Shown here piece by piece: positions 424-20,978 of a DNA stretch of 64,000 nucleotides. Positions within the stretch are counted from its first letter, which is position 1. The number at the start of each line of letters is the position of its first letter. A program made the translations under genes and the position numbers. The notes under the pieces were generated by a model that did no database searches, had not been told where the DNA came from, and was given only the letters and a program-made list of their open reading frames with translations. Origin of the DNA: a virus; IMG/VR virus record IMGVR_UViG_3300047300_000657, positions 3,929 to 67,928 of that record. The stretch is one strand, 5' to 3'.

Positions 424-1014
424 TTAAGGTTGTGGAAGAATTGCGTCGTCAAACTGTGGGAATAAAGGGTTGGCATCACCATTTATAAATGTTCTAATTT
501 TTTCAGCTAACAACATATCGTCTATATTTAACTCTAAATAACTATTCTTTTTGCCATCAAAGAATGTTCTAACTTTTGTCAGATGTCTATCGTAAATTAC
601 TCTTAGCTCTGCATCTGTTAAGTCTTGAATTTTTTTCTTACCCGTGGCAGCATAGATGTTGCAGTAGGCTTCCTCAAATATATAAGGATCGCCTTCGTGA
701 CCTCTAGCCTCTTGAATTCTTTTCATTGAGGTAACCCATTTATCTTGAGTTCTAGTTATATTGATAAATTTTGCATCTGGGTACTTAGCGTATAGCTCTT
801 CGAATATAAAACAATTTGGTATATCTAAATAAGCATCAGTTTTTGGAATACTTTCAAAGTGGTCTAGTATTCCTTTTAGGTCCTCGCTAAAAGTTCCAAG
901 TGGAATATTTGAAAAATCATAAAAATGGGTTACCGATAGCCCATGTCGTCTTAAATACTCAGCAAGAGACTGAGTTGCGTTTCTACCTAAACTAACACCA
1001 AATACTTTTGTCAT
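424..1014 (-). CDS. sulfotransferase-family P-loop protein
   Basis: N-terminal KVFGVSLGRNATQSL and YPDAKFINITR...W..S, typical of the Sulfotransfer_4-like family. Confidence 0.65.
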   Translation of the reverse strand: MTKVFGVSLGRNATQSLAEYLRRHGLSVTHFYDFSNIPLGTFSEDLKGILDHFESIPKTDAYLDIPNCFIFEELYAKYPDAKFINITRTQDKWVTSMKRIQEARGHEGDPYIFEEAYCNIYAATGKKKIQDLTDAELRVIYDRHLTKVRTFFDGKKNSYLELNIDDMLLAEKIRTFINGDANPLFPQFDDAILPQP

Positions 1015-1403: not shown

Positions 1404-1890
1404 TTTTTGTATATAAAAAATTATTTTGATCGTCAAAAACATTTATTCGATCAAAAACCCCTTCATTGTATTTTTCGGGACCATACTGAATGACCCCACT
1501 TTTTTCTTCAACTGTATAATAAAAATTATACATAGAAAAGCCGTCGCTATTAATATCGCTGTTTGAGTAAGGAGCTCTAAGATGGTCGATAATTAAATCT
1601 AAGTCTCCTACATAGCCATTTACTTGTGCATAAAAATGTATTTTATCTTTGTTTATTTTAACAATAATATCTGCATTTGTTAATTTCATTGAGATTAAAT
1701 CAATCTCAACAAGCGTTCCTAAATAATTATCATGAATTACATTATTATGTCCAAAATCGCACTCATGTCTTTTAGAATACTGAGACAATCCCAAAAGAAC
1801 ATTATGTATATAGGCGTTTGATATTCCTTCTGGTACGTCTCCATAAATGTTTATTATGGTTTTAATACCTTGCTTGTAATCGTGACTCAT
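1384..1890 (-). CDS. hypothetical protein
   Basis: ORF track; start trimmed to the ATG overlapping the upstream stop. Confidence 0.6.
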   Translation of the reverse strand: MSHDYKQGIKTIINIYGDVPEGISNAYIHNVLLGLSQYSKRHECDFGHNNVIHDNYLGTLVEIDLISMKLTNADIIVKINKDKIHFYAQVNGYVGDLDLIIDHLRAPYSNSDINSDGFSMYNFYYTVEEKSGVIQYGPEKYNEGVFDRINVFDDQNNFLYTKNEKINK

Positions 1891-2939
1891 ATTAAATCCA
1901 AACAGCTGTTGATGTCTCTCCACAGATCGTCTGGGTCTTCGCAACCTATTGATAATCTTATTAGTGTTTCTGGAACAATATGGCTCTCAAGTGGCCAGCG
2001 CCGTCTTCTTTCCCACAAAGATTCAACTCCGCCTAGACTTGTTGCGTTAGCTATTAGTCTTGAAGATGAGCAAATTTTTTCAGAATCTTCTGGAGTTCCA
2101 TATATGTCAAAAGAAATCATAGCACCAAAACCTGGGTAATATACTTCTTTAACTAAGCTATGATTCTTTAATTCTTTAACTATTTTTTTAGCTGTATCTT
2201 GAGCCTTATCAAACCTCATGGGAAAAGTTCTTATTCCTCTTAATGCAAGAAAAGCTTCAAATGGTTGCATTATAGTTCCGCCAATCTTTCTTTCAAACTC
2301 TATAAGGTCATAAAGCTCTGAATTATTGGTTGATACTGATCCGCCAAGAACATCAGTGTGCCCTGCAAAATACTTTGAGACAGAATTTATTGATATATCT
2401 GCACCTAAATCTAGTGGGACTTGGTTTATGGGCGTAGCAAATGTATTGTCTACTACGACAATAACATTATTTCTTTTTGCTGATTTAATTAGTCTTTCTA
2501 TGTCTGCTACCTGCAACATTGGGTTTGTTGGACTTTCTATCCATAACATCCAAGCCTCTTCTAAATTTCCTAAAACTTCTCCAGTGTTTGCTATATCAAC
2601 AAATACCGCATCAATCTTATCAGATTTATCTAGCTTGTTTAATGTTGCATTTACTCCAGCGTATCCCTGATTTGATGCTACTATTTTTGCACCGACAGGA
2701 GCTAGATTTAAAATTGCTTGTGTTGCTGACATGCCAGAACTAAATGCTAGTGTTCTTCCTTTTTCTAAAGAAGCTATTACTTCTTCTAACGAAGAGCATG
2801 TATCGTTACCATATCTGCCATACCCTATATCTCCGCCTGCGTGATATGATGAGTTTAATGATACGGGTGTATTAATCGGTCCATCATTGTTTTTTTCAGG
2901 ACGGCCTTTTGAAATTACTTTTGTATATATTGATGTCAT
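1887..2939 (-). CDS. metB: PLP-dependent trans-sulfuration enzyme (cystathionine gamma-synthase/lyase family)
   Basis: YGRYGN, FSSGMSA, ESPTNP, VVDNTF, SKYFAGH (PLP lysine), SLGGVES, RLSIGCED motifs. Confidence 0.85.
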   Translation of the reverse strand: MTSIYTKVISKGRPEKNNDGPINTPVSLNSSYHAGGDIGYGRYGNDTCSSLEEVIASLEKGRTLAFSSGMSATQAILNLAPVGAKIVASNQGYAGVNATLNKLDKSDKIDAVFVDIANTGEVLGNLEEAWMLWIESPTNPMLQVADIERLIKSAKRNNVIVVVDNTFATPINQVPLDLGADISINSVSKYFAGHTDVLGGSVSTNNSELYDLIEFERKIGGTIMQPFEAFLALRGIRTFPMRFDKAQDTAKKIVKELKNHSLVKEVYYPGFGAMISFDIYGTPEDSEKICSSSRLIANATSLGGVESLWERRRRWPLESHIVPETLIRLSIGCEDPDDLWRDINSCLDLI

Positions 2940-3577
2940 TTTATCATCTTTGAATGATCAAATATAAAAGATGGAAGTACATAGCGTACTGGACCCTTTG
3001 CTACTGTACGTACTCCATGCTCATATTCTTCTGTTGCTGGGAATATCATTGCTGCACCAGCTGGGGGGGTTATCTCTATTCCTTTGTGAGAAAAAAATAA
3101 TTCTCCTTTATTGTAATCATCATTTATATATGCGACACAAGCCCAAACATGTCTAACATCAGCCTTGTCATCATAATGAGCTTTTAATTCAGTTCCGTCG
3201 TACATTCTTTGTAACGTGCCAAAGCTTCTAAAATCAAATCCGCAGTCTGGTTCAAAAAATGAACCTACTCTACTTGCAAGTATTTGAACCAAACTTGTCT
3301 TGCCAGATAAAGATAAAACTTTATCATCCCAATTTTGTGTTACTTCAATGCCAGCTGCTTTAAAATCTCTTTTGCCCGTAAGCTCTTCTGCTCTATCTTC
3401 TAAATGCTTTGTGTAATGTTGATGTTGAGCCCAGTCTTCTGCTTGAGCATTATCAATTATGCTCCACATTTCAGATATTTCTTTTTCTGTTAAAAAGTTT
3501 TCTACCATGTAGATGTTTGGGTCTAGCTTAGTTACACTATACCCTTGTGACTCAATAAGATTTATGTTTACGCTCAT
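2936..3577 (-). CDS. 2OG-Fe(II) oxygenase (prolyl-4-hydroxylase-like)
   Basis: HYD...YINDDY.GGE-like...HGV...R facial-triad pattern. Confidence 0.85.
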   Translation of the reverse strand: MSVNINLIESQGYSVTKLDPNIYMVENFLTEKEISEMWSIIDNAQAEDWAQHQHYTKHLEDRAEELTGKRDFKAAGIEVTQNWDDKVLSLSGKTSLVQILASRVGSFFEPDCGFDFRSFGTLQRMYDGTELKAHYDDKADVRHVWACVAYINDDYNKGELFFSHKGIEITPPAGAAMIFPATEEYEHGVRTVAKGPVRYVLPSFIFDHSKMIK

Positions 3578-3609
3578 TATATTCTTTCTAATTATAGTTG
3601 AAGGACGCT

Positions 3610-3693
3610 CTAAAAAGAATCTAGGACCTCATCGATCCTGTCATCCAAATTAGGATAATGCTCTTTAGAGCAATCCCCACAACTTTTACACAC
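3610..3693 (-). CDS. 27-aa MCxxCGxC micropeptide (not in ORF track)
   Basis: GTG start overlaps upstream TAG; MCKSCGDCSKEHYPNLDDRIDEVLDSF. Confidence 0.55.
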   Translation of the reverse strand: MCKSCGDCSKEHYPNLDDRIDEVLDSF

Positions 3694-3887
3694 TATACTT
3701 TTTTTCTGCCAGTTTTCTTTGGCGGACGTGGAGCATTTGAAGTTTCTCTACGAATACCATGTTTGTTGGTATCAATTTTTATTCCAGATCTAAATCCATT
3801 TTGTTTTGGATTTTTTCTAGTTGCTTCACGACTTGTTACTGCGCCTGATGGTTGGCTTGGCAATGGTGCTGGTGTTCCGTCTGACAT
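3693..3887 (-). CDS. small basic hypothetical protein
   Basis: 64-aa ORF, start/stop overlaps on both sides. Confidence 0.7.
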   Translation of the reverse strand: MSDGTPAPLPSQPSGAVTSREATRKNPKQNGFRSGIKIDTNKHGIRRETSNAPRPPKKTGRKKV

Positions 3888-4033
3888 TAGTCTGGATCTA
3901 CCATTCCTTCCGCTGCCTCATGAGCTGCAGACTCTTCTGCTCTCTCATTCATACCATTAGAAACATCCATCATGTTAATTGATGACATCCCCATCTGGCT
4001 TCCAACGCTTTCGCAACCGCATTCAACGCACAT
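3887..4033 (-). CDS. 48-aa MCxxCGC micropeptide (not in ORF track)
   Basis: MCVECGCESVGSQMGMSSINMMDVSNGMNERAEESAAHEAAEGMVDPD; TAATG coupling to the next gene. Confidence 0.7.
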   Translation of the reverse strand: MCVECGCESVGSQMGMSSINMMDVSNGMNERAEESAAHEAAEGMVDPD

Positions 4034-4035
4034 AA

Positions 4036-4197
4036 TTACTTACCGCCGTTGCCTACGCCTGAACCATCTTGTGATGATTTATCTGCAGCAGGAAATGCTG
4101 ACTTTGGAGCCTCAGTGTAATTTTCTGTAGCCCATGGTGATGATCCTGCTGGCTTTGCAGCTTCAAATCCTCCACCGTTTATACCGTTTGTTGTCAT
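4036..4197 (-). CDS. 53-aa Gly/Ala/Ser-rich peptide (not in ORF track)
   Basis: MTTNGINGGGFEAAKPAGSSPWATENYTEAPKSAFPAADKSSQDGSGVGNGGK; AGGAG RBS and upstream GATATAAT. Confidence 0.75.
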   Translation of the reverse strand: MTTNGINGGGFEAAKPAGSSPWATENYTEAPKSAFPAADKSSQDGSGVGNGGK

Positions 4198-4243
4198 TTT
4201 TTTCTCCTATAGGTTTATATTATAAGCGGATCTAGAATACCGC

Positions 4244-4348
4244 TCACTCATCAATTATATCATTTAGTTGATTAGAATCTGGCAAAGGCTCTTCTCTTGA
4301 CTCGTTTCCAGGTCCGATATGGTCAGCACAACCGCATATCCAGCACAT
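4244..4348 (-). CDS. 34-aa MCxxCGC micropeptide (not in ORF track)
   Basis: MCWICGCADHIGPGNESREEPLPDSNQLNDIIDE; ATG overlaps the radical SAM stop (TAATG). Confidence 0.65.
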   Translation of the reverse strand: MCWICGCADHIGPGNESREEPLPDSNQLNDIIDE

Positions 4349-5337
4349 TATTCTCCCCAAATTGCAGCTGAGCATTTTGTACACATATTAGAATATGCTT
4401 CTTTGATGGCTTCCTGCCTCTTTTGTCCATTCCAAATTTCTTTTAATGTTTCTTTATTTGTATTACCAAACACGGTTTCAAAATCAAAATCAGCACAACA
4501 TATAAATAAATCTCCGTTTGGATTAACATGAATCCAATTTTCTGTTCTGCTTCTATAGCCTATACCGCCATTGCAGCCTATGACCCTGCTGCCCTTTGTT
4601 TTTAAATATTTATTAATAGCATTTGTTTGGCTAATAATGCCTACGTCTTCTAAATGTCCTGCCCTATCATATAAATTATTTGCAGTCCAAGTCTTTAAGC
4701 CTGGGAATAATTTTTTAATTCTTTCATCTTCTTGCACCAAAGATCCAGTTTTATCATCCATGTCCATTTTGGGAGCATTTTCTAAAAGATCTAACCACCC
4801 TCCATTTTTTGTTAAAGAAGATTCGTTAACACCATTTATCATTAATACAATTTTTTCTGACTCTACAAAATCATTTAGTTGTTCCATTGCATAGGAAACA
4901 TTAGACACCATCTTATCAAACAGCTTCGGATTCATTTTAACATACTTTGCCCATGTATCCTTATCACCTGATGGAATGTTTAACAATATTCCATGTATAA
5001 CATCTTTATTCTTTACCATGATATCAACTTTAGATTTTGTTAAAGCTACGCCATTTGTTAGAATGTTTATTCTAAAATTATATTTTTTATATACATCAAA
5101 CATTTTTTCAAAATTCTTATATAAAAGAACTTCGTTATAGTTTGCTGTATATATTAAGAATAAATTAGGATCAACAAAGTCTCCTTTGCCCTCATGCAAC
5201 TGTTTTAAAATGTTATCTAGTTCGTCCAGGGGCATCTCTCTTCTGGCTGATTCTGGATTACCCTCATATGAAACTGGACAAAACCAACAGCCAGCATTGC
5301 ACAAGCCGTTGACATCTATCTGAACGCCTTTAATCAT
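4348..5337 (-). CDS. radical SAM protein with C-terminal SPASM/twitch domain
   Basis: CNAGCWFC (CxxxCxxC); C-terminal GC...NGDLFICC...FGN...EIW...CTKC. Confidence 0.9.
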   Translation of the reverse strand: MIKGVQIDVNGLCNAGCWFCPVSYEGNPESARREMPLDELDNILKQLHEGKGDFVDPNLFLIYTANYNEVLLYKNFEKMFDVYKKYNFRINILTNGVALTKSKVDIMVKNKDVIHGILLNIPSGDKDTWAKYVKMNPKLFDKMVSNVSYAMEQLNDFVESEKIVLMINGVNESSLTKNGGWLDLLENAPKMDMDDKTGSLVQEDERIKKLFPGLKTWTANNLYDRAGHLEDVGIISQTNAINKYLKTKGSRVIGCNGGIGYRSRTENWIHVNPNGDLFICCADFDFETVFGNTNKETLKEIWNGQKRQEAIKEAYSNMCTKCSAAIWGE

Positions 5338-5451
5338 TTATGCCCTACATTTATTATACCAACAATGATCGCATACAAATTTTTGATCTGTTGTTGAAAT
5401 CTTTGTTGCAATATTTTTGCAACCCTCTATCTCACAATTACTTTTTGACAT
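5338..5451 (-). CDS. 37-aa Cys-rich micro-protein (not in ORF track)
   Basis: MSKSNCEIEGCKNIATKISTTDQKFVCDHCWYNKCRA, abutting the radical SAM start. Confidence 0.55.
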   Translation of the reverse strand: MSKSNCEIEGCKNIATKISTTDQKFVCDHCWYNKCRA

Positions 5452-5551
5452 TAATTTTCTTTCTTAATGTCCACACTGGTATTGATGTTGGTGTATCTTG
5501 CAACTCATACCCAAGCATTTTTGAAATAAACTTTAGCAGTTTTATTCTCAT
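5438..5551 (-). CDS. 37-aa hypothetical peptide (not in ORF track)
   Basis: MRIKLLKFISKMLGYELQDTPTSIPVWTLRKKINVKK; fills the gap with overlaps. Confidence 0.45.
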   Translation of the reverse strand: MRIKLLKFISKMLGYELQDTPTSIPVWTLRKKINVKK

Positions 5552-5769
5552 TTAATCTTAGAGCCAAACTTATTCCAGGCTCTTTCATGTAAAAAGAAAC
5601 CAAACATTTCACATAAGGTGTATATAATTGCAAATGATCCAGCGTACTCCCAATGAGCTTCGCCAGTAATTGCTTTTTCAAAAAAATAAACTAATGTTCC
5701 AACAAACAATATATGTACTGCTGGCCAAGTGATCGACTTGTATATGCTTTTTTTGCTGCTATCTGTCAT
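5548..5769 (-). CDS. DUF2061-like small membrane protein
   Basis: KSITW...two TM segments...HERAW motif. Confidence 0.75.
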   Translation of the reverse strand: MTDSSKKSIYKSITWPAVHILFVGTLVYFFEKAITGEAHWEYAGSFAIIYTLCEMFGFFLHERAWNKFGSKIK

Positions 5770-5915
5770 TCTGACTCCTCAATTTTTCTTGCTACAAACC
5801 TAAGAACTTCCCTAGGTCTCCACTCAGGTGGCAATTCTAAATCTTTAAATGAATCTATTATTCTTTTTTTATAAGCTTCTTTATAAAGCTCAAAAGCTTT
5901 AAAATCTTCTTCCAT
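5766..5915 (-). CDS. 49-aa hypothetical protein (not in ORF track)
   Basis: MEEDFKAFELYKEAYKKRIIDSFKDLELPPEWRPREVLRFVARKIEESE; leaderless TAGAAT promoter; ATGA overlap. Confidence 0.6.
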   Translation of the reverse strand: MEEDFKAFELYKEAYKKRIIDSFKDLELPPEWRPREVLRFVARKIEESE

Positions 5916-5981: not shown

Positions 5982-7058
5982 TTACTTAAGTGTGGCTACC
6001 TTAGCCTTTGGATTGGCCTTGTTCCACTTTGCAGCAAGTGCATTAAATGCCTTCTTTACTGCAGCAAGAGCAGCAGCATTATCAGCGTTTGCCTTAGCGA
6101 TAGCAGCATTAGCAGTTGCGAGATCAGCAATAGCCTTAGCGGTTTCCGCCTTTGACTTTGCTAGTTCTGCATCAGCAAGAGCCTTTGCATCAGCAAGAGC
6201 CTTTGCGCCTGCAGCCTTCTCAGCAGCAAGTTGTGCTACAACGGTAGCAAGTTCTGCATTCTTAACAGAAAGTTCTGATGCAAGATCACGAACTGTAGCA
6301 GTCTTAACAACAACACCAAGTGGTGCTGAAAGACCAGTTACTGCAGTAGCAACTGTAGCAGTTGCAATAATGGTAACTGTACCAGATGCAGGAAGTGTTA
6401 CATCCTGTGTCTTTGTACCCAAAGTTGCTGTAGCTGTGTCAGTTGTTAATGAGTATGTTGTTGAAGCAGTTGGTGTAACGTACTGAAGGCTAATTGATGC
6501 TCCGCCCTTAGCGTTTCCAAATACGTCATAACCAAGTACCTTGATTGTTGAAACAGTTCCAGCAGCCCCTGATGTTGGAGCATCTAGAGCAATTGTATTA
6601 AGTGCTCCTGCTGTACCATTAAAATAGTAAACTGTTGTATTACCAGCAACCGTTACAGAAACTGTTCCTGCAGCAGTCGAAGTTGTAAATACATATAGAT
6701 CAGCAGTGGTACCTGTACCTGTGCTGATTGATGCTGATGTTGAACCAGCTGATGCTGTTACTGGTGCTGCAACTGTTGCAAGAGCAGTAACAATCTTACC
6801 GTTAGTTACGGAAGCAGTTACAACTGTTCCTGTATCTAAACCTGTAAGGGCAATCTTAAGAGCATCTGCAGAATCTACAGAGTTATCTGCAGGAACTGGA
6901 AGTGCAATTGCAGTTGCTGCTGTTGTACCAGCAGTTGCAGGTGCTGAACCGCCAACCGTGAGGGTTGTTGATACTGCAGCACTTGCAGGTGTTGCAACAA
7001 GTGAACTCAAGGTAATGGCTGCAACCACACCAAGAGCGATTTTCTTAAATGACTTCAT
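5982..7058 (-). CDS. secreted Ala/Thr-rich cell-surface (S-layer-like) protein
   Basis: signal peptide MKSFKKIALGVVAA...ASA; beta-rich A/T/V body; C-terminal Ala/Lys coiled coil. Confidence 0.7.
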   Translation of the reverse strand: MKSFKKIALGVVAAITLSSLVATPASAAVSTTLTVGGSAPATAGTTAATAIALPVPADNSVDSADALKIALTGLDTGTVVTASVTNGKIVTALATVAAPVTASAGSTSASISTGTGTTADLYVFTTSTAAGTVSVTVAGNTTVYYFNGTAGALNTIALDAPTSGAAGTVSTIKVLGYDVFGNAKGGASISLQYVTPTASTTYSLTTDTATATLGTKTQDVTLPASGTVTIIATATVATAVTGLSAPLGVVVKTATVRDLASELSVKNAELATVVAQLAAEKAAGAKALADAKALADAELAKSKAETAKAIADLATANAAIAKANADNAAALAAVKKAFNALAAKWNKANPKAKVATLK

Positions 7059-7105: not shown

Positions 7106-7276
7106 CTAATCTAGTTCCCAAACACGTATCTGAAAACTGCATGGATCTCCGCCTTGATTCCATTCATATTCTTCTTCATCGGTCATTGGCGGACCTTCAT
7201 GAGTATTACAAAATACATCTGAGATCCAACCTTTGTCGAATCCATATTTCATCCACTCATTAAAATTTAAATCCAT
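7106..7276 (-). CDS. 56-aa hypothetical protein (not in ORF track)
   Basis: MDLNFNEWMKYGFDKGWISDVFCNTHEGPPMTDEEEYEWNQGGDPCSFQIRVWELD. Confidence 0.65.
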   Translation of the reverse strand: MDLNFNEWMKYGFDKGWISDVFCNTHEGPPMTDEEEYEWNQGGDPCSFQIRVWELD

Positions 7277-7572
7277 GGCTTAAGCTCCTCTAAAAGCTTA
7301 TGCTTTGGCATAGCACCAATCACTGTATGAACTGGTTGACCATTAGTAAATAGTACCATAGTTGGTATAGATTGTACAGAGTATTCGGCAGTTTTCACAG
7401 TATTCTCATCAACATTTAACTTACCGACGAGTACGGTTCCCTCTGAATCTATTTCTTGAAGGATGGGGAGCATGATTTTGCATGGCCCACACCATTCAGC
7501 CCAAAAATCAACCAAAATATTTCCATCAAAGTTTATCACTTGGTCAAAATTTTCATCATTCAGCGTTAGCAT
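7267..7572 (-). CDS. trxA: thioredoxin
   Basis: VDFWAEWCGPCK active site and SIPT motif; start trimmed to MLTLND. Confidence 0.95.
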   Translation of the reverse strand: MLTLNDENFDQVINFDGNILVDFWAEWCGPCKIMLPILQEIDSEGTVLVGKLNVDENTVKTAEYSVQSIPTMVLFTNGQPVHTVIGAMPKHKLLEELKPWI

Positions 7573-8053
7573 ATTTATCCTTATGTGTAGGCCAGTAGTA
7601 CTGGCATCGTTCGCAGCAAGGCTTGTTGTTTGGATCATTTACAGATGATGCAAATTCTGCATAATATACTGGATCCTTGCGATACAAGTTTGCTTTGTGT
7701 GTTGCGTTAACACGTTTAATTGTTGTTGGGTTAATTGCCCAACGTGGGGTTTCATCTCCCCACATAAGTGATTTGCGGTCACGAGATAGTGACTCTAAGT
7801 TTGCTTTATTCTTATCTGTTTTGATGCCACGCATGTCTGCTAATACAACTGCAGTCATAGCATAACGATAAAGTTCTGCTTCTGCACCTTCCCACATTAG
7901 GACAGCTGGGTGGTTGCGCCAAGCATTTGACTTAGAGTTACCAGTTAGGATGTTAAGTATCTGATAACATTCTAATATTTGTTTGTTGAGACGCTTGCTA
8001 TCTAATGCGTCAAGACTATTACGTTTAGCTGGAAAGGGTAGAAATGTTTGCAT
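7556..8053 (-). CDS. pyrimidine-dimer DNA glycosylase / endonuclease V-like (actinobacterial MQTFLP family)
   Basis: MQTFLP...LD.KRL.KQ..E...HPAV.MW.G...H..NL.RKDP..Y...YYWP. Confidence 0.85.
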   Translation of the reverse strand: MQTFLPFPAKRNSLDALDSKRLNKQILECYQILNILTGNSKSNAWRNHPAVLMWEGAEAELYRYAMTAVVLADMRGIKTDKNKANLESLSRDRKSLMWGDETPRWAINPTTIKRVNATHKANLYRKDPVYYAEFASSVNDPNNKPCCERCQYYWPTHKDKYANAE

Positions 8054-10951: not shown

Positions 10952-11188
10952 TTAAACTAATAATTCAGAGGCAGTTATTTCATCTCCGTGATACTTCTTT
11001 TTCATAACAAATTCTTTAACAGCATCTGAACCATTTTGTCTTCCAGCCAATATTACAACCCATCTAGGCTCAAATTTTGAAGTATGGCAAGTTTCGCACA
11101 TTAATAAATTAATTGGAAGTAGCTGTGACTTCTTTACAGATAGCTGATTTTTGCTTTTATTACATGAATAACAAAGAACTTTTTCCAT
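10952..11188 (-). CDS. zinc-finger hypothetical protein
   Basis: CYSC...CETC. Confidence 0.7.
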   Translation of the reverse strand: MEKVLCYSCNKSKNQLSVKKSQLLPINLLMCETCHTSKFEPRWVVILAGRQNGSDAVKEFVMKKKYHGDEITASELLV

Positions 11189-16240: not shown

Positions 16241-17002
16241 CTAAATACCCAATTCTTTACGCTTTTCAGTAGCGCTAATAGCATGAATTTTTTCCCCCAA
16301 ATCTATTTGTTCAATCTTGTATCCTACATCACGACCATAGACAATGTTTGTAATATTAGGTAGCCTTAAAACCATTGCTTGTTTCATAAAATCATCTTTA
16401 TCAATATAACCCTTTACCTGATCAAATGTAAGAGGATCCTTCTCACTGGTATTATATGTATTACGAACTCCAAGAAGAACTTGATTTGTTCGCTTACCAG
16501 CTTCTTTATACAAAGCATGATGACCTTCGTGCCATGGTTGGTATCTACCAAGCATGAGTGTTGTTGGGGCAGACCAATCATGGAGACCAAACTGATTAAT
16601 GATTGTTGATGCTTTTTGATCAGGGTCAAGCAAATGGCTTGGAAACCCAATATCATATTCAGACGGCTCTTCAAACATCTTATTTGTATCTTCAAATCTT
16701 CCTTGTTGAATTGTATACATGTAAACAAGAATGTCAGGTTTACCAAATGCCTCTCTTGTTTCTTTTGTTGGGCATACAAAATCTACAATTACTGGAGCAA
16801 CTCCCTGATTGGCAATAAGTCTTGCCATTTCTCCCATACGTCTTGCTTGCTCAATTCTATCTTCTTTTGTAAATCCTAAATCTGAATTTACTGTAGCACG
16901 AACTTCATCTGCGTTTAGATGAATTGCATTAATTCTTTCTTTTAAAGCTTTAGCAAGAAATGTTTTGCCAGAACCTGGTAGTCCTATAATTTGTATGATC
17001 AT
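16241..17002 (-). CDS. cysC: adenylylsulfate-kinase-like P-loop domain fused to an HxGH nucleotidyltransferase domain
   Basis: GLPGSGKT, LNADEVR...DLGF..EDR; C-terminal GRYQPWHEGH and ISAT. Confidence 0.75.
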   Translation of the reverse strand: MIIQIIGLPGSGKTFLAKALKERINAIHLNADEVRATVNSDLGFTKEDRIEQARRMGEMARLIANQGVAPVIVDFVCPTKETREAFGKPDILVYMYTIQQGRFEDTNKMFEEPSEYDIGFPSHLLDPDQKASTIINQFGLHDWSAPTTLMLGRYQPWHEGHHALYKEAGKRTNQVLLGVRNTYNTSEKDPLTFDQVKGYIDKDDFMKQAMVLRLPNITNIVYGRDVGYKIEQIDLGEKIHAISATEKRKELGI

Positions 17003-18639: not shown

Positions 18640-19692
18640 CTATATTCTACTATTTGACTCTACCATGGATTGCGGTGAGACTTTTATAAATCTTGCATCT
18701 CTACGTAGAGACATTAGGTCTTCTGATCCGCAATAAGACATACCGCTTTTTATATTATTTATGAGCTGCTGTATAGAATCTTTTACAGAGCCTTTACTTT
18801 TTATTACAGCTTCAGCTCCTTCTATATGCAGCCTGTCTGCTGGAACATTTGCACCTTCTATAGTTTGAATACCACGAGAAGCCAGTCCTCTGAATATCAA
18901 ATTTCCATCTTTATCTTTTTCACATTCATCATGACCTGCAAAAAAATTACCCATCATGATAGCGCTTGCTCCAGCTGCAAGGGCTTTGACGGCATCCCCA
19001 TTATTTTTTATTCCTCCGTCTGACACTATTCCATTTATTGAATATTCTTTTACTCTTTCATATATATCAATTACTGAGGATAAAACTGGTTGTCCAAACC
19101 CAGTAACAACTCTGGTTGTACAAGCAGCTCCGCCACCAATACCTACACGCACAGAATCTGCACCAGCATCCATGAGGTCCCTGTATGCTTCAAAAGAAGA
19201 AACGTTTCCTGACATTATGTGTATGCTAGAAGGACAAATACCCCTAAGATCTTTTACTGCAGATATTGCGGTATCTGTATGTCCAAATGCGGTATCTATT
19301 AGGATTATCTTAACGCCAATAGAAACAATTTTATTTATTAGATCCGCATCTGACGCTTCATTATTACTTATAGAAAATCCTACACGGTTGTGATATGGAT
19401 TGTTTCGCATTTGATACTCAAGTTGCTCAATTCTTTTTTCTAATGGCATAAACCTATGAATAAATGCAACTCCACCTGCTTCTGTTACTTCTTCAATCAT
19501 TTTATTACTATTAATAAATTCCATTGGTGCGGTCATAAAAGCATTATATAATTCTATAACACCGTCTGGATTATTTGGGTTACCCAATAAACTTTTAATA
19601 GTTATATTTGATCTACTTTTTATGTTTGATCTAGATGGAAGCAGCAGAATGTCATCAAAACATACGTTGCTGACTGTAGTGTCTAGCTGCAT
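18640..19692 (-). CDS. guaB: IMP dehydrogenase / GMP reductase family
   Basis: FDDILL.P, ID.A.GH, VGIGGGAACTTR, SDGGI...GD..KALAAGA, SGMSY.G. Confidence 0.88.
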   Translation of the reverse strand: MQLDTTVSNVCFDDILLLPSRSNIKSRSNITIKSLLGNPNNPDGVIELYNAFMTAPMEFINSNKMIEEVTEAGGVAFIHRFMPLEKRIEQLEYQMRNNPYHNRVGFSISNNEASDADLINKIVSIGVKIILIDTAFGHTDTAISAVKDLRGICPSSIHIMSGNVSSFEAYRDLMDAGADSVRVGIGGGAACTTRVVTGFGQPVLSSVIDIYERVKEYSINGIVSDGGIKNNGDAVKALAAGASAIMMGNFFAGHDECEKDKDGNLIFRGLASRGIQTIEGANVPADRLHIEGAEAVIKSKGSVKDSIQQLINNIKSGMSYCGSEDLMSLRRDARFIKVSPQSMVESNSRI

Positions 19693-19695
19693 GAA

Positions 19696-20175
19696 TTAAT
19701 CCTTTAATGATTTCCATGGGTTTGGTGGTAGCTTTAGGCTTGATTGCAAGAACCAATCCCACTCTTGATGCTGTCCAAGTCTATTTGATAAAAATTGAAC
19801 AAGCCCATGCTCTCTATGTACAATTGCTTGCTCTACTAAAATCTTAATATCTTCAATAATTCTTTGATTAATTGGAACAAGATGTTGAGCCATTTCTACT
19901 CCACAGTATGTAGCAGGCTTTACATTTCCCAATGTTTGATTAGCAGTAAACTCTTCTAGAGTATACGGAGCTTCTCCATTTAATCTTCTTAGCCATACAG
20001 AAACCTCGTGTACAGCATTTTCTGCATCCTTATAGATTTCTTCATATATAATTCTTGACTGTCTCATTAAGACAGACTCTGTATTCCAGTGGAATCCGTG
20101 CACTAGGTGTGCGAACACTACTGAGTTTGCTTGAAATTCCTGTAGCGATTTTATTAGTTCTTTTTGTTTTACCAT
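19696..20175 (-). CDS. dps: Dps/ferritin-like protein, degenerate ferroxidase site
   Basis: HGFHWN present; later canonical H/D/E ligands substituted. Confidence 0.75.
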   Translation of the reverse strand: MVKQKELIKSLQEFQANSVVFAHLVHGFHWNTESVLMRQSRIIYEEIYKDAENAVHEVSVWLRRLNGEAPYTLEEFTANQTLGNVKPATYCGVEMAQHLVPINQRIIEDIKILVEQAIVHREHGLVQFLSNRLGQHQEWDWFLQSSLKLPPNPWKSLKD

Positions 20176-20978
20176 TGTCTTGTTTCTCCCCATGTCTTTT
20201 GTTTTCCAAACATACCGTCTAACCTTCTTTGATTTTGTACAAAACCTCCAGTTACGGCGTGAGCTAATTTAAATAGATCTGGTATCAAAAGGTCTCCCTT
20301 CTGCCAGCGGTGCACTTTTCTAAATTCAGTATCTTCCCAAACTATTTTAGTTACCTTAACATTTAGCTCTATAAATCTTTTATTATCTTCCTCTGATGGC
20401 TCTCTACCATCAAATTCAACCAAGCGAATTGGAAGATACCCGCCTAGATGTGTTCGTAAGGTTTTTTCATTTGTAATCCAATGCCTCTTTACATAATCAA
20501 ATCTTACATTACTACCATCTTTTTTTATACCTTCAACTCTACATTTATCTAAAAAATCTGTTTCATTTTTATCTAAGCGATTATATAGGTCTGCCATATC
20601 ATAAAAACATGTATTGCCCGTGTCGTAATCGCAATCAAACTGAGTCATATTCCATGTGGAACCGTAAAAAGAATCATTCTCGTACTCTACCCACTCTACA
20701 TGCCAGCCCAACATCCATTCATCTTTTGTTGCAATTGTTGGACCCTTCATGTGCTTGTGATGGTCTTCAATATAATCAGATTTTGATGTATCTTTTGAGT
20801 TAGGATACCATCCTAGTAGGTCTCCAAAAATATGCATTATATCTTGCTGCATTGCAAAATCAGCATGAACATTTCTAAATGCAATTATTTTTTCATCTAA
20901 AAATTTTTGCTTATAATAATTAAGATTGTTTTTTATAGAGTCCATTCCTGGGAACTCAATGACCTCAACCTCTTGCAT
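20169..20978 (-). CDS. TauD/TfdA-family dioxygenase
   Basis: WHVE, GNT.F.DM..LY, H.W..GDLLI.D....H...R. Confidence 0.8.
   Translation of the reverse strand: MQEVEVIEFPGMDSIKNNLNYYKQKFLDEKIIAFRNVHADFAMQQDIMHIFGDLLGWYPNSKDTSKSDYIEDHHKHMKGPTIATKDEWMLGWHVEWVEYENDSFYGSTWNMTQFDCDYDTGNTCFYDMADLYNRLDKNETDFLDKCRVEGIKKDGSNVRFDYVKRHWITNEKTLRTHLGGYLPIRLVEFDGREPSEEDNKRFIELNVKVTKIVWEDTEFRKVHRWQKGDLLIPDLFKLAHAVTGGFVQNQRRLDGMFGKQKTWGETRQW

What the first reader, a model, noticed from the sequence alone, without database searches (positions are those of the whole stretch)
3610..5451. Radical SAM/SPASM enzyme surrounded by unannotated MCxxCG(x)C micropeptides
Three sub-50-aa ORFs missed by the track share an N-terminal motif followed by an acidic tail: MCWICGCADH (4244-4348, coupled to the radical SAM stop), MCVECGCES (3887-4033) and MCKSCGDCSKEH (3610-3693). 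A fourth Cys-rich 37-mer abuts the enzyme start, and a 53-aa Gly-rich peptide with its own promoter sits in the middle. Established: SPASM/twitch radical SAM enzymes often crosslink Cys-containing peptides (sacti-/ranthipeptides), and N-terminal CxxCGC is the high-affinity nickel site of E. coli HypB. A 2OG-Fe oxygenase and a PLP trans-sulfuration enzyme follow. Inference: either a phage-encoded RiPP-like modification system or a family of metal-chelating micropeptides.
Basis: partly seen in the sequence, partly recalled or inferred. Interest (0 to 1): 0.78.

Follow-up and report, generated by a model that had tools for sequence, protein, structure and literature searches.

The report
Phage micropeptides with N-terminal Cys3 tag
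A freshwater actinophage carries three real, conserved micropeptides that each begin with a cysteine motif like a known nickel-binding site; only one of them is tied to the neighbouring radical SAM enzyme.

Summary
The three ORFs are at the stated coordinates. They are the only start+CxxCGG ORFs in 64 kb, where 0.28 are expected by chance. All three are conserved and under purifying selection.

They belong to three different families.
- Family A (MCWxCGCADHxGxGN, 4244-4348) overlaps the radical SAM stop codon. It was found only beside this enzyme clade, in 46 of 46 contigs. Its pN/pS is 0.10.
- Families B (3887-4033) and D (3610-3693) are much larger. They lie mostly in phage contigs without the enzyme. 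None of 189 loci on other contigs and none of 10 large contigs holds it. Five complete genomes hold no radical SAM gene at all.

The shared motif sits at residues 2-7, as in the Ni(II) site of HypB. Sub-threshold HypB-prefix profile hits occur in 26 of 26 A and 17 of 40 B members. In two relatives the motif is fused to the 2OG oxygenase.

My best reading is a portable N-terminal metal-binding (or Fe-S-binding) tag, with peptide A as the enzyme's dedicated partner. Peptide A as a substrate remains a live rival. The families are in no library I searched and function is untested.

The parts
4348..5337 (-). Radical SAM enzyme with a short twitch/SPASM-type C-terminal domain, 329 aa, without an RRE domain
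   Evidence: Pfam PF04055 and PF13186 are above their cut-offs. Invariant Cys in 35 homologues: C13, C17, C20, then C255, C280, C281, C319, C322. AF2 model pLDDT is 91.9. Nearest solved folds are SuiB, BtrN, DesII, anSME, BlsE, EpeE and SkfB at TM about 0.5.
4244..4348 (-). Micropeptide A (MCWICGCADHIGPGN plus an acidic tail, 34 aa), the family linked to the radical SAM enzyme
   Evidence: Its start overlaps the enzyme's stop as TAATG. The peptide is present in 29 of 30 evaluable close enzyme loci. 46 of 46 pattern hits lie in enzyme-bearing contigs. pN/pS is 0.10. HypB_prefix_1 gives sub-threshold hits in 26 of 26 members.
4198..4243 (-). Intergenic gap with a short inverted repeat, a TATAAT hexamer and an AGGAG ribosome-binding site ahead of the Gly-rich ORF
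   Evidence: Read directly from the sequence. The promoter scan finds no full two-hexamer site here.
4036..4197 (-). Gly-rich 53-aa ORF with a conserved C-terminus (..DKSSQDGSG.GNGGK), a member of the small-gene cassette
   Evidence: Homologues lie in the same position in relatives. tblastn hits occur in 69 of 191 loci that lack the enzyme.
3887..4033 (-). Micropeptide B (MCVECGCESVGS..., 48 aa), a family independent of the radical SAM enzyme
   Evidence: pN/pS is 0.38. A profile search finds 22 cluster representatives, nearly all 30-94 aa and starting at residue 1. HypB_prefix_2 gives sub-threshold hits in 17 of 40 members.
3693..3887 (-). Basic 64-aa ORF (..KIDTNKHGIRRET..PKKTGRKKV), start coupled to the stop of B, a cassette member
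   Evidence: Conserved in position in relatives. tblastn hits occur in 127 of 191 loci that lack the enzyme.
3610..3693 (-). Micropeptide D (MCKSCGDCSKEH plus an acidic tail, 27 aa, GTG start), a widespread family independent of the radical SAM enzyme
   Evidence: 97 unique sequences sit in very different phage contexts. pN/pS is 0.34. Weak Fer4/ferredoxin similarity of CxxCGxC.
5338..5451 (-). Four-Cys 37-aa ORF (C-x4-C ... C-x2-C, zinc-ribbon-like), its stop abutting the enzyme's start
   Evidence: 35-40 aa homologues lie upstream of the enzyme, directly or with a ferritin-like gene between, in 13 of the 18 close loci printed. It also occurs in loci without the enzyme.
5548..5769 (-). DUF2061 membrane protein, 73 aa, the first gene of the conserved small-gene cassette
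   Evidence: PF09834 scores 34.6 bits against a cut-off of 23.1. tblastn hits occur in 71 of 191 loci that lack the enzyme.
2936..3577 (-). 2OG-Fe(II) oxygenase, 213 aa. In two relatives its orthologue carries an N-terminal MCNSCGCQG or MCTTCGCMG tag.
   Evidence: PF13640. The fused 238-aa forms are L004:4515-5231 and L078:1848-2561.
1887..2939 (-). Cys/Met-metabolism PLP enzyme (cystathionine gamma-lyase/synthase family), which travels with the enzyme and peptide A
   Evidence: PF01053, E 1.5e-82. Present in 12 of 30 and 24 of 46 enzyme-clade loci, against 2 of 191 other loci; both of those two lie on enzyme-bearing contigs.
19696..20193 (-). Ferritin-like protein, which lies close to the enzyme and peptide A in relatives but 14 kb away in this window
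   Evidence: PF00210, E 1.1e-8. Present in 24 of 30 and 20 of 46 enzyme-clade loci, against 1 of 191 loci without the enzyme and 0 of 40 loci of distant enzyme relatives.

Best explanation
The three ORFs are genuine, translated phage micropeptides from three distinct families. They share one feature: a Cys2-x2-Cys5-Gly-(x)-Cys motif at the very N-terminus, followed by an acidic tail.

I read the motif as a portable N-terminal metal-binding tag. In families A, B and C it is CxxCGC at residues 2-7. That is the position and spacing of the high-affinity Ni(II)/Zn(II) site of HypB, which uses the N-terminal amine and three thiolates. In family D it is CxxCGxCxxxH, the first three quarters of a [4Fe-4S] ferredoxin motif.

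Families B and D belong to a cassette of small genes: DUF2061, a four-Cys mini-protein, a Gly-rich ORF, B, sometimes C, a basic protein, and D. This cassette is common in freshwater actinophages and does not need a radical SAM enzyme. B and D are therefore not this enzyme's substrates.

Family A is a paralogue recruited to the twitch-type radical SAM enzyme. It is co-translated with the enzyme and co-inherited with it. A ferritin-like gene and a C-S lyase-type PLP enzyme often travel with the pair.

The most likely role of A is a dedicated metallo-partner of the enzyme: a donor or holder of metal or an Fe-S cluster, or a redox or regulatory subunit.

Shown: reality of the genes, conservation, co-occurrence patterns, motif identity. 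Inferred: metal binding, which metal, and the partner role.
For: Reality and selection.
- The three sites are the only such ORFs in 64 kb.
- Family A, codons 2-16, has pS 0.84, pN 0.084 and a ratio of 0.10 in 17 sequences found through the enzyme alone. The enzyme's own catalytic core in the same genomes has a ratio of 0.18.
- All four Gly codons are used at G6 and G12.
- The ratios for B, C and D are 0.38, 0.35 and 0.34.

Link of A to the enzyme.
- 29 of 31 close enzyme loci carry A. One of the other two is cut off at the contig end, and one (L023) has the N-terminus deleted.
- A degenerate scan for A gave 46 stretches. 45 have the enzyme in the locus, and the 46th lies on a contig that has it.

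Independence of B and D.
- The scans gave at least 119 and at least 120 stretches.
- Of 192 new loci, 1 has the enzyme. That locus and 2 others lie on known enzyme contigs.
- 0 of 10 large contigs have it; 7 of them are at least 90% complete.
- 0 of 5 complete genomes have any PF04055 gene, while the control rang in 14 of 14.

The tag is modular.
- It is fused to the 2OG oxygenase in 2 contigs and to a basic AKKAP-repeat tail in L223.
- The C-terminal half of B occurs with other N-termini, in P0129 and P0130.

Resemblance to metal sites.
- HypB's CxxCGC binds Ni(II) at picomolar affinity through the N-terminal amine and Cys2, Cys5 and Cys7 (PMC12284835, passages read).
- HypB_prefix_1 is the only NCBIfam hit for family A, in 26 of 26 members, best E 0.0019. 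HypB_prefix_2 is hit by 17 of 40 B members.
- For D, Fer4_21 and Fer4 are each hit by 2 of 45 members. Clostridial-type ferredoxins align CkeCGnC to CIECGNC.

Iron and sulfur context of A.
- The ferritin-like gene is in 24 of 30 and 20 of 46 enzyme-clade loci, against 1 of 191 other loci.
- The PLP lyase is in 12 of 30 and 24 of 46, against 2 of 191.

Precedent. Marine phages that encode IscU or A-type Fe-S carriers also encode several radical SAM enzymes (PMC5332604, passage read).
Against: - No metal binding has been measured.
- Every profile hit to HypB prefixes and Fer4 is below the curated cut-off and rests on a 7-15 residue motif.
- A and B have only three Cys. B and C lack a fourth ligand such as His.
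- Adjacent tiny Cys-rich ORFs next to SPASM/twitch radical SAM enzymes are usually substrates in bacteria (recalled). The nearest solved folds include the peptide-modifying enzymes SuiB, anSME, EpeE and SkfB.
- The co-occurrence of A, the enzyme, the ferritin-like gene and the PLP gene comes from related phages. It may partly reflect shared descent rather than function. I made no phylogenetically independent test.
- The enzyme's distant relatives (35-46% identity, 40 loci) work without any such peptide. The enzyme therefore does not need A in general.
- One contig keeps an intact enzyme but has lost the N-terminus of A.
Confidence: 0.45

Rival explanations
1. Peptide A is a RiPP-like substrate. 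The radical SAM enzyme modifies its conserved 16-residue N-terminal core, for example by a Cys thioether or a cross-link at the invariant Trp3 or His10. The acidic tail would serve as a follower rather than a leader. The product could itself be a metal-binding peptide.
For: - Strict co-occurrence in 46 of 46 contigs and translational coupling.
- Invariant non-Cys residues W3, A8, H10 and G12, and nearly invariant D9, G14 and N15.
- Purifying selection as strong as on the enzyme's catalytic core.
- SuiB, anSME, EpeE and SkfB are among the closest solved folds.
- Weak NCBIfam hits to peptide maturases such as rSAM_ACGX, DynA and CcpM.
Against: - There is no RRE or leader-binding domain. The enzyme begins 12 residues before its CxxxCxxC motif.
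- Only five C-terminal Cys are invariant, not the seven of a full SPASM domain (the seven-Cys rule is recalled).
- BtrN, DesII and BlsE, which act on small molecules, are equally close folds.
- The same N-terminal motif works in paralogues without any radical SAM enzyme.
- Forty distant enzyme relatives lack such a peptide. Instead they sit by glycosyltransferases in 34 of 40 loci and by P4H-like oxygenases in 20 of 40.
- A core at the extreme N-terminus is unusual for RiPPs (recalled).
Confidence: 0.3
2. The micropeptides are small zinc-knuckle-type regulators or host-takeover proteins. The metal is only structural. The conserved tails bind phage or host proteins, for example the co-encoded basic protein. 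The link of A to the enzyme is operon inheritance without shared chemistry.
For: - Each family has its own conserved tail, for example ..SRDGEAGLTLNMTATPEQ..FINE in B and ..TIDDAVD..LDS in D.
- B is coupled to a conserved basic protein.
- D sits in many unrelated phage contexts, including tail-fibre regions.
- RNA-library contigs that are near-identical to the window cover 3676-3838 and 3901-4236. DNA carry-over in those libraries is not excluded.
Against: - The motif's fixed position at residues 2-7 in all five peptide families I named (A, B, B2, C, D) and in the oxygenase fusions points to use of the N-terminal amine, not an internal knuckle.
- Fusion to a metalloenzyme and co-travel with a ferritin-like gene are not expected for pure regulators.
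- The strict A-enzyme link survives gene rearrangements. In 6 loci (L020, L024 and L027 among them) the PLP gene lies between the enzyme and A.
Confidence: 0.15
3. Split SPASM domain. The enzyme ends seven residues after its last CxxC. Peptide A would supply three further Cys in trans to ligate a second auxiliary cluster.
For: - The enzyme ends ..CTKCSAAIWGE, and A begins MCWICGC one base later.
- Five invariant Cys plus three from A would make eight.
Against: - Distant relatives end in the same way and have no such peptide.
- None of the six longer homologues I inspected is an enzyme-A fusion. Their extra length is all N-terminal.
- In several loci the PLP gene separates the two genes.
- C...C...CxxC fits a complete single-cluster twitch domain, as in BtrN (recalled).
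Confidence: 0.05

Closest known systems
N-terminal extension of HypB ([NiFe]-hydrogenase nickel metallochaperone)
   Same: CxxCGC at residues 2-7 of the polypeptide, followed by acidic or His residues. In HypB this site binds Ni(II) at picomolar affinity through the N-terminal amine and Cys2, Cys5 and Cys7, and a short peptide of the motif also binds Zn(II) (PMC12284835, passages). The NCBIfam HypB_prefix models are the only families hit by A and the main one hit by B.
   Different: There is no GTPase domain, and none of the window proteins I scanned matched a hydrogenase or Hyp family. The peptides stand alone at 23-68 aa, or are fused to a 2OG oxygenase. They are viral. All profile scores are below the curated cut-offs.
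Radical SAM/SPASM peptide-maturation systems (sactipeptides, ranthipeptides/SCIFF, streptide, epipeptide)
   Same: A tiny Cys-rich ORF lies directly beside a radical SAM enzyme with a SPASM/twitch-type C-terminal domain. SuiB, EpeE, SkfB and anSME are among the nearest folds.
   Different: There is no RRE, and only five invariant C-terminal Cys. The conserved part of the peptide is the extreme N-terminus. Two of the three peptides are found almost entirely without the enzyme.
Phage-encoded Fe-S assembly proteins (IscU, A-type carriers) that co-occur with phage radical SAM genes
   Same: In both cases a phage brings cluster-handling helpers together with radical SAM enzymes (PMC5332604, passage). 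A-type carriers also use a CGC motif (recalled).
   Different: The peptides have no homology to IscU or IscA folds. They are 5-10 times smaller. Cluster binding is unproven.
[4Fe-4S] ferredoxin motif CxxCGxCxxxCP
   Same: Family D has C2-x2-C5-G-x-C8. It aligns to CIECGNC of ferredoxins and gives weak Fer4_21/Fer4 hits in 2 of 45 members each.
   Different: The fourth position is His12 instead of Cys-Pro. There is one motif only, at the very N-terminus of a 27-32 aa peptide. All scores are far below threshold.
Twitch-domain radical SAM enzymes acting on small molecules (BtrN, DesII, BlsE)
   Same: The enzyme is of similar size and fold (TM about 0.5), with a C...C...CxxC pattern that fits one auxiliary cluster (the BtrN ligand pattern is recalled). 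The wider enzyme family sits beside glycosyltransferases.
   Different: Sequence identity is 14-16%. No substrate is known for this phage family.

Membership tests
Radical SAM superfamily (the enzyme) | CxxxCxxC cluster motif and a Radical_SAM profile match above the cut-off | tested here: met
   C13, C17 and C20 are invariant in 35 sequences. PF04055 scores 46.7 bits against a cut-off of 29.5.
SPASM subfamily (two auxiliary clusters) | Seven-Cys motif, C-x9-15-G-x4-C ... C-x2-C-x5-C-x3-C ... C (motif recalled) | tested here: not met
   The PF13186 profile is matched at 48.2 bits. However, only five C-terminal Cys are invariant, and the protein ends seven residues after CxxC. This fits a twitch-type single cluster better.
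RiPP precursor of this radical SAM enzyme | The peptide gene co-occurs with the maturase across relatives | tested here: met
   This row is for family A only. 46 of 46 pattern hits lie in enzyme contigs, and 29 of 30 evaluable close enzyme loci carry A.
RiPP precursor of this radical SAM enzyme | The peptide gene co-occurs with the maturase across relatives (families B and D) | tested here: not met
   1 of 192 new loci has the enzyme. 0 of 10 large contigs have it. 0 of 5 complete genomes have any PF04055 gene, with the control ringing in 14 of 14.
RiPP precursor of this radical SAM enzyme | A leader-recognition element (RRE/PqqD-like domain) in the enzyme or a partner | tested here: not met
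   The enzyme gives only Radical_SAM and SPASM hits plus one sub-threshold GH114_assoc hit. It has 12 residues before its cluster motif. The 9 neighbouring ORFs scanned against Pfam gave no RRE or PqqD-like hit.
RiPP precursor of this radical SAM enzyme | Enzyme-dependent covalent modification of the peptide | not testable with these tools
   This needs co-expression and LC-MS.
HypB-type N-terminal high-affinity metal site | CxxCGC at residues 2-7, so that the N-terminal amine and Cys2, Cys5 and Cys7 can bind one ion | tested here: met
   This holds for A, B, C and the oxygenase fusions: M1, C2, C5, G6 and C7 are invariant. Family D has CxxCGxC and does not meet it. The HypB site is described in PMC12284835.
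HypB-type N-terminal high-affinity metal site | A profile match to curated HypB prefix models above the cut-off | tested here: not met
   HypB_prefix_1 is hit by 26 of 26 A members, with best E 0.0019; the window's A scores 16.3 bits against a cut-off of 30. HypB_prefix_2 is hit by 17 of 40 B members, with best E 0.033 against a cut-off of 35 bits.
HypB-type N-terminal high-affinity metal site | Attached to a HypB GTPase domain within a hydrogenase maturation pathway | tested here: not met
   The peptides are 23-68 aa and stand alone. The only fusions seen are to a 2OG oxygenase and to a basic repeat tail.
HypB-type N-terminal high-affinity metal site | Measured high-affinity Ni(II)/Zn(II) binding | not testable with these tools
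   This needs peptide titrations, ICP-MS or XAS.
4Fe-4S ferredoxin (family D) | CxxCxxCxxxCP motif and a Fer4 profile match | tested here: not met
   C2, C5, G6 and C8 are invariant, but position 12 is His rather than Cys-Pro. Fer4_21 and Fer4 are each hit by 2 of 45 members, with best E 0.0039 and 0.14.

The most novel reading that the evidence does not exclude
Freshwater actinophages encode a previously undescribed class of stand-alone 'metal-hook' micropeptides. Each carries an N-terminal Cys3 site of the HypB type, or of the ferredoxin type in family D. These peptides would act as viral metallochaperones or mini Fe-S carriers.

One paralogue (A), together with a ferritin-like protein and a C-S lyase, would form a phage-borne supply kit for the clusters, metal or electrons of a phage radical SAM enzyme. 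The same tag fused in cis would load a 2OG-Fe(II) oxygenase.
Probability: 0.3. Interest if true: 0.8.

Novelty: new variant of a known kind. Interest (0 to 1): 0.62.

Why it matters
If the tag binds metal, these would be the smallest known genetically encoded metal or cluster carriers. They would also be a first case of phages bringing their own metallochaperone-like peptides. That would give a direct handle on how viruses of sulfur- and metal-limited freshwater Actinobacteria keep their metalloenzymes working.

The families are large. My loci alone hold 97 unique D sequences and 130 unique non-A CxxCGC sequences. They are strongly conserved and are in none of the libraries I searched, so they show how much small-protein biology gene annotation misses.

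The result also has a practical use. Adjacency to a radical SAM enzyme was not enough to call a RiPP here, because two of the three peptides fail a simple co-occurrence test. Peptide A and its enzyme form a compact, cloneable pair on which the substrate and partner readings can be tested.

Tried and rejected
Chance ORFs: rejected on the shuffles, on conservation and on pN/pS.

All three peptides as substrates of one enzyme: rejected for B and D on co-occurrence.

Complex prediction of the enzyme with peptide A, two 4Fe-4S clusters and SAM: score 0.03, no verdict. I use it neither for nor against binding.

Enzyme-A fusion proteins: the six longer homologues I fetched of the 120 listed all have N-terminal extensions and end ..AAIWG. 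No fusion was seen.

Known phages:
- tblastn of the enzyme, B and D, and megablast of 7.7 kb, against 50,697 GenBank phage records gave no match.
- The major capsid protein is 55-59% identical to Streptomyces phages.
- Two of those phages, Sham and LilMartin, hold no such ORFs; the one pattern match is at control level.

Cellular genomes: the D pattern gave 4 matches in 185,579 species genomes. Two lie inside larger ORFs and are chance. Two lie on small phage-like contigs binned into MAGs.

ESM Atlas: only unnamed viral clusters.

A PDB profile search with family A gave nothing.

Promoter scan: no promoter call ahead of the Gly-rich ORF.

RNA libraries:
- Contigs of four metatranscriptome runs touch 3676-4236 and 5567-5800.
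- Two contigs of run X15 are near-identical to the window (3676-3838 and 3901-4236).
- No contig was laid on 4258-5518, which holds A and the enzyme. That is no evidence of silence, and DNA carry-over is not excluded.

Literature: five full-text searches found no description of phage N-terminal CxxCGC micropeptides in their listings. The searches were CXXCGC; radical SAM/phage/SPASM/auxiliary metabolic; actinophage/freshwater/acI/metagenomic; phage-encoded/RiPP/radical SAM/precursor peptide; and phage/small proteins/metal-binding/cysteine-rich/metagenom. I read passages only of PMC12284835 and PMC5332604, and no supplements. Table S1E of PMC5332604, which I did not see, lists the phage Fe-S genes.

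I made no phylogenetically independent test of the co-travel of the enzyme, A, the ferritin-like gene and the PLP gene.

Recalled and not tested here:
- the SPASM seven-Cys rule and the BtrN ligand pattern;
- the ferredoxin CxxCxxCxxxCP motif;
- the CGC motif of A-type carriers;
- the NiSOD hook and the [NiFe]-hydrogenase CGxCxxxH motif, which I considered as leads only;
- bottromycin-type follower peptides;
- Met removal before Cys;
- the dependence of freshwater acI Actinobacteria on reduced sulfur.

Full report
WHAT IS THERE

The window is part of a 67.9-kb virus record. It is 37.6% G+C, and almost all long ORFs lie on the - strand. Its major capsid protein is 55-59% identical to those of Streptomyces phages of the Stanwilliamsviridae. 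It also encodes DnaE, DnaB and tail proteins. Near-identical DNA occurs in freshwater, river and estuary metagenomes of several studies. I therefore read it as a freshwater actinophage.

The region 1887-5769 is a tight run of - strand genes:
- DUF2061 membrane protein (5548-5769);
- a four-Cys 37-mer (5338-5451), whose TAA abuts the next ATG;
- a radical SAM enzyme (4348-5337);
- micropeptide A, MCWICGCADH... (4244-4348), whose ATG overlaps the enzyme's TAA;
- a 46-nt gap with a small hairpin, a TATAAT hexamer and an AGGAG site;
- a Gly-rich 53-mer (4036-4197);
- micropeptide B, MCVECGCES... (3887-4033);
- a basic 64-mer (3693-3887);
- micropeptide D, MCKSCGDCSKEH... (3610-3693, GTG start);
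- a 2OG-Fe(II) oxygenase (2936-3577);
- a Cys/Met-family PLP enzyme (1887-2939).

Only the 'own promoter' of the Gly-rich ORF is not borne out by the consensus scan.

IS IT MORE THAN CHANCE?

A start codon followed by TGY-N6-TGY-GG occurs three times in 64 kb, only at these three places. The shuffle mean is 0.28, and 1 of 100 shuffles reaches 3. The CGC form occurs twice against a mean of 0.00.

All three ORFs are conserved in related viral contigs with heavy synonymous turnover. For A, 17 sequences were found through the enzyme alone, so they are not biased by a peptide pattern. In these, codons 2-16 give pS 0.84, pN 0.084 and a ratio of 0.10. That is tighter than the enzyme's own catalytic core in the same genomes, at 0.18. 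All four Gly codons are used at G6 and G12. The ratios for B, C and D are 0.38, 0.35 and 0.34. These are translated genes.

THREE FAMILIES, NOT ONE

The relatives show at least five peptide families with the same N-terminal motif:
- A: MCW[ILM]CGCA[DS]H[IV]G[LP]GN..., 23-41 aa.
- B: MC[VIFY]ECGCE[SAT][VL]GS.TG...SRDGE[AS]GLTL.MT[AS]TPEQ..FINE, mostly 49-52 aa. The window's copy has a divergent tail.
- B2: MC.MCGCGS.., 43-68 aa.
- C: MCK[DE]CGCG...NVVT.SQIKG., 31-36 aa. The window has none.
- D: MC[KR].CG.CS[KR]EH..TIDDAVD..LDS.., 27-32 aa.

In two contigs the orthologue of the neighbouring 2OG oxygenase itself begins MCNSCGCQG or MCTTCGCMG (L004/L086 and L078; PF13640). One peptide joins MCKDCGCG to a basic AKKAP-repeat tail (L223). 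The C-terminal half of B also occurs behind unrelated N-termini, in P0129 and P0130. The motif is therefore a portable module that always sits at residues 2-7 or 2-8.

CO-OCCURRENCE WITH THE RADICAL SAM ENZYME

A search with the enzyme gave 71 viral loci. Of the 31 with 62-89% identity, 29 carry A just downstream, or after an intervening PLP gene. One (L070) ends 240 bases into the enzyme. One (L023) keeps only the tail of A (..VDVDPNQLNDIIDS) after a deletion of the N-terminus. The 40 distant relatives, at 34-46% identity, have no such ORF.

In the other direction, a degenerate scan for A found 46 stretches. Of these, 45 have the enzyme (60-77% identity over the matched part) in the locus. 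The 46th is a 1.7-kb piece of a contig that has it.

The scans for B, C and D gave at least 119, 18 and at least 120 stretches. Of the 192 new loci, one has the enzyme. That locus and two others lie on contigs already known to carry it. The other 189 show none.

Whole-contig searches support this. They found the enzyme in 0 of 10 large contigs that carry B and/or D. Seven of these are at least 90% complete and three have terminal repeats. The same search finds the enzyme in the window's own record. Five complete genomes among them have no PF04055 gene at all, while the control rang in 14 of 14 genomes.

B and D belong instead to a cassette of small genes found with or without the enzyme: DUF2061, the four-Cys mini-protein, the Gly-rich ORF, B, sometimes C, the basic protein, and D. 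D also stands alone in quite different phages of 36-50% G+C, for example between tail-fibre genes and a 656-671 aa protein.

THE ENZYME

Its Pfam hits are Radical_SAM and SPASM. The NCBIfam hits are all far below their cut-offs and are spread over many maturase types. The family is known only from phages and metagenomes, under generic names.

In 35 homologues the invariant Cys are C13, C17 and C20, then C255, C280, C281, C319 and C322. The protein ends seven residues after the last CxxC and has no N-terminal domain ahead of the cluster motif. From recall, this pattern fits a twitch-type single auxiliary cluster rather than a full seven-Cys SPASM domain.

The AF2 model is confident, with pLDDT 91.9. 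Foldseek places it equally near two groups at TM about 0.5 and 11-17% identity. One group modifies peptides (SuiB, anSME, EpeE, SkfB). The other acts on small molecules (BtrN, DesII, BlsE). The fold therefore does not decide the substrate.

The distant relatives sit beside glycosyltransferases (GlcNAc, GT2 and mannosyltransferase types) in 34 of 40 loci. They sit beside P4H-like 2OG oxygenases in 20 of 40. The family as a whole does not depend on a CxxCGC peptide.

WHAT THE MOTIF RESEMBLES

HypB of E. coli begins with CxxCGC at residues 2-7. That site binds Ni(II) at picomolar affinity in a square-planar complex. The ligands are the N-terminal amine and Cys2, Cys5 and Cys7. A short peptide of the motif also binds Zn(II) (PMC12284835, passages).

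The phage peptides have the same spacing at the same position. NCBIfam's HypB_prefix_1 is the only family hit by A, in 26 of 26 members with best E 0.0019. HypB_prefix_2 is hit by 17 of 40 B members, with best E 0.033. All of these hits are below the curated cut-offs and rest on the motif, so this is a resemblance and not membership.

D has CxxCGxCxxxH. It aligns to the CIECGNC of clostridial-type ferredoxins and gives weak Fer4_21/Fer4 hits in 2 of 45 members each.

The strict N-terminal placement across all families, including the oxygenase fusions, is what one expects if the free N-terminus takes part in binding. It is not expected of an internal zinc knuckle.

CONTEXT OF PEPTIDE A

Two further genes travel with the enzyme and A:
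- The ferritin-like gene (PF00210) is in 24 of 30 and 20 of 46 enzyme-clade loci. In many it lies next to the enzyme. It is in 1 of 191 loci without the enzyme and in 0 of 40 loci of distant relatives. In the window it lies at 19696-20193.
- The Cys/Met PLP enzyme is in 12 of 30 and 24 of 46 enzyme-clade loci, against 2 of 191 other loci. Both of those two are on enzyme contigs.

The window also carries several sulfur-related genes: thioredoxin, APS kinase, a sulfotransferase and a TauD-family dioxygenase.

Marine phages that encode IscU or A-type Fe-S carriers are reported to carry several radical SAM genes as well (PMC5332604, passage).

These loci come from related phages. I did not test independence on a tree, so the co-travel is suggestive only.

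MOST LIKELY MECHANISM

I commit to the following. The N-terminal Cys3 motif is a metal-binding tag, or possibly an Fe-S-binding one. Phages use it both in cis, on the oxygenase, and in trans, as micropeptides. B and D act independently of the radical SAM enzyme. Their conserved tails probably dock them to specific partners; the basic protein coupled to B is a candidate.

A is a paralogue dedicated to the twitch-type radical SAM enzyme. It is made with the enzyme from one message. It serves as a metallo-partner: a donor or holder of metal or cluster, or a redox or regulatory subunit.

My sub-estimates are:
- real and conserved genes, about 0.97;
- B and D independent of the enzyme, about 0.9;
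- metal binding, about 0.7;
- A as partner rather than substrate, about 0.5.
This gives about 0.45 for the whole statement.

The main rival, at 0.3, is that A is a leaderless substrate whose N-terminal core is modified by the enzyme. The two readings could also combine, as a matured metal-binding peptide.

The complex prediction gave no verdict. It is reported only under Tried and rejected.

COMPARISON AND NOVELTY

The enzyme is a member of the radical SAM superfamily with a SPASM/twitch-type domain. It belongs to no curated subfamily.

The peptides work like the HypB N-terminal site, or like a ferredoxin motif in D, but they are members of neither family. They have no G-domain, no Cys-Pro and only sub-threshold scores.

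Pfam, NCBIfam and PHROGs gave no match above a curated cut-off. GenBank phages gave no match for the enzyme, B or D, which were the parts searched. The ESM Atlas holds A and B only as hypothetical viral proteins. The listings of five literature searches showed no description.

I rate the finding as a new variant of a known kind: N-terminal Cys-rich metal sites, and small metal-binding proteins. The families themselves are newly recognised, large and phage-restricted.

Interest is 0.62. The sequence-level facts are robust, and the pairing of A with its enzyme is directly testable. The chemistry, however, is still inference.

LIMITS

- The pdb_via library was unavailable.
- Family A was too short for the large protein search.
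- The B and D scans are lower bounds.
- RNA-library contigs cover parts of the cassette, but they show neither translation nor that the uncovered parts are silent.

Noticed in passing
window 424-1014, 1887-2939, 7267-7638, 16241-17002, 20169-20978: A marked sulfur theme among the phage's accessory genes: Sulfotransfer_4, a Cys/Met PLP enzyme, thioredoxin, APS kinase and a TauD-family dioxygenase. This may relate to hosts that depend on reduced or organic sulfur (recalled for freshwater acI Actinobacteria).
   Followed up: partly
L029-L063, L065, L066, L068, L069, L071 (distant relatives of the enzyme): The wider phage radical SAM family (34-46% identity) sits next to GlcNAc-type, GT2 or mannosyl transferases in 34 of 40 loci. 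It sits next to P4H-like 2OG oxygenases in 20 of 40, often beside structural genes. This could be a protein or glycan modification module. Its substrate is unknown.
   Followed up: partly
window 10952-11101 (-): Another conserved 49-aa ORF that begins MCETCH... It has close homologues in L113, L108, L076 and L074 (MCETC../MCKSC..EPRW..ILAGRQ.G). It has no Pfam hit.
   Followed up: no
L234:12004 (-), L250:977 (+); L084, L154, L180, L225, L227, L302: Two further small families share the N-terminal theme. One is MCTQCGCAD...PPYGKG, 43-61 aa. The other is MCNKCGM..ENIEYWDNHQTMSD..VWCA., 30-32 aa.
   Followed up: no
L023:2330-2620 (same contig as L226): One relative keeps an intact enzyme but has lost the N-terminal CxxCGC part of peptide A. 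Only ..VDVDPNQLNDIIDS remains in frame.
   Followed up: yes
window 3676-3838 and 3901-4236: Contigs of a metatranscriptome run (X15) match these stretches with one differing letter each. They cover the start of D and part of the basic ORF, then most of B and the whole Gly-rich ORF. DNA carry-over is not excluded.
   Followed up: partly
window 5982-7058 (-): A 358-aa Ala/Thr-rich protein with a signal-peptide-like N-terminus (..ATPASAA) and a conserved C-terminus (..KWNKANPKAKVATLK). It precedes the small-gene cassette in relatives too, for example L001, L002, L316 and L317. It has no Pfam hit.
   Followed up: no
P0129, P0130, P0138: The C-terminal module of B (..SRDGESGLTL.MTSTPEQTRQFINE) occurs behind unrelated N-terminal regions. 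In P0138 the N-terminal half of B is joined to a fragment that looks like a 2OG oxygenase. This could be domain shuffling or an assembly artefact.
   Followed up: no
window 18640-20193 (-): The ferritin-like gene and an IMPDH/GMP-reductase gene are adjacent here. They are one gene apart at most in relatives where they lie within about 2 kb of the enzyme.
   Followed up: partly
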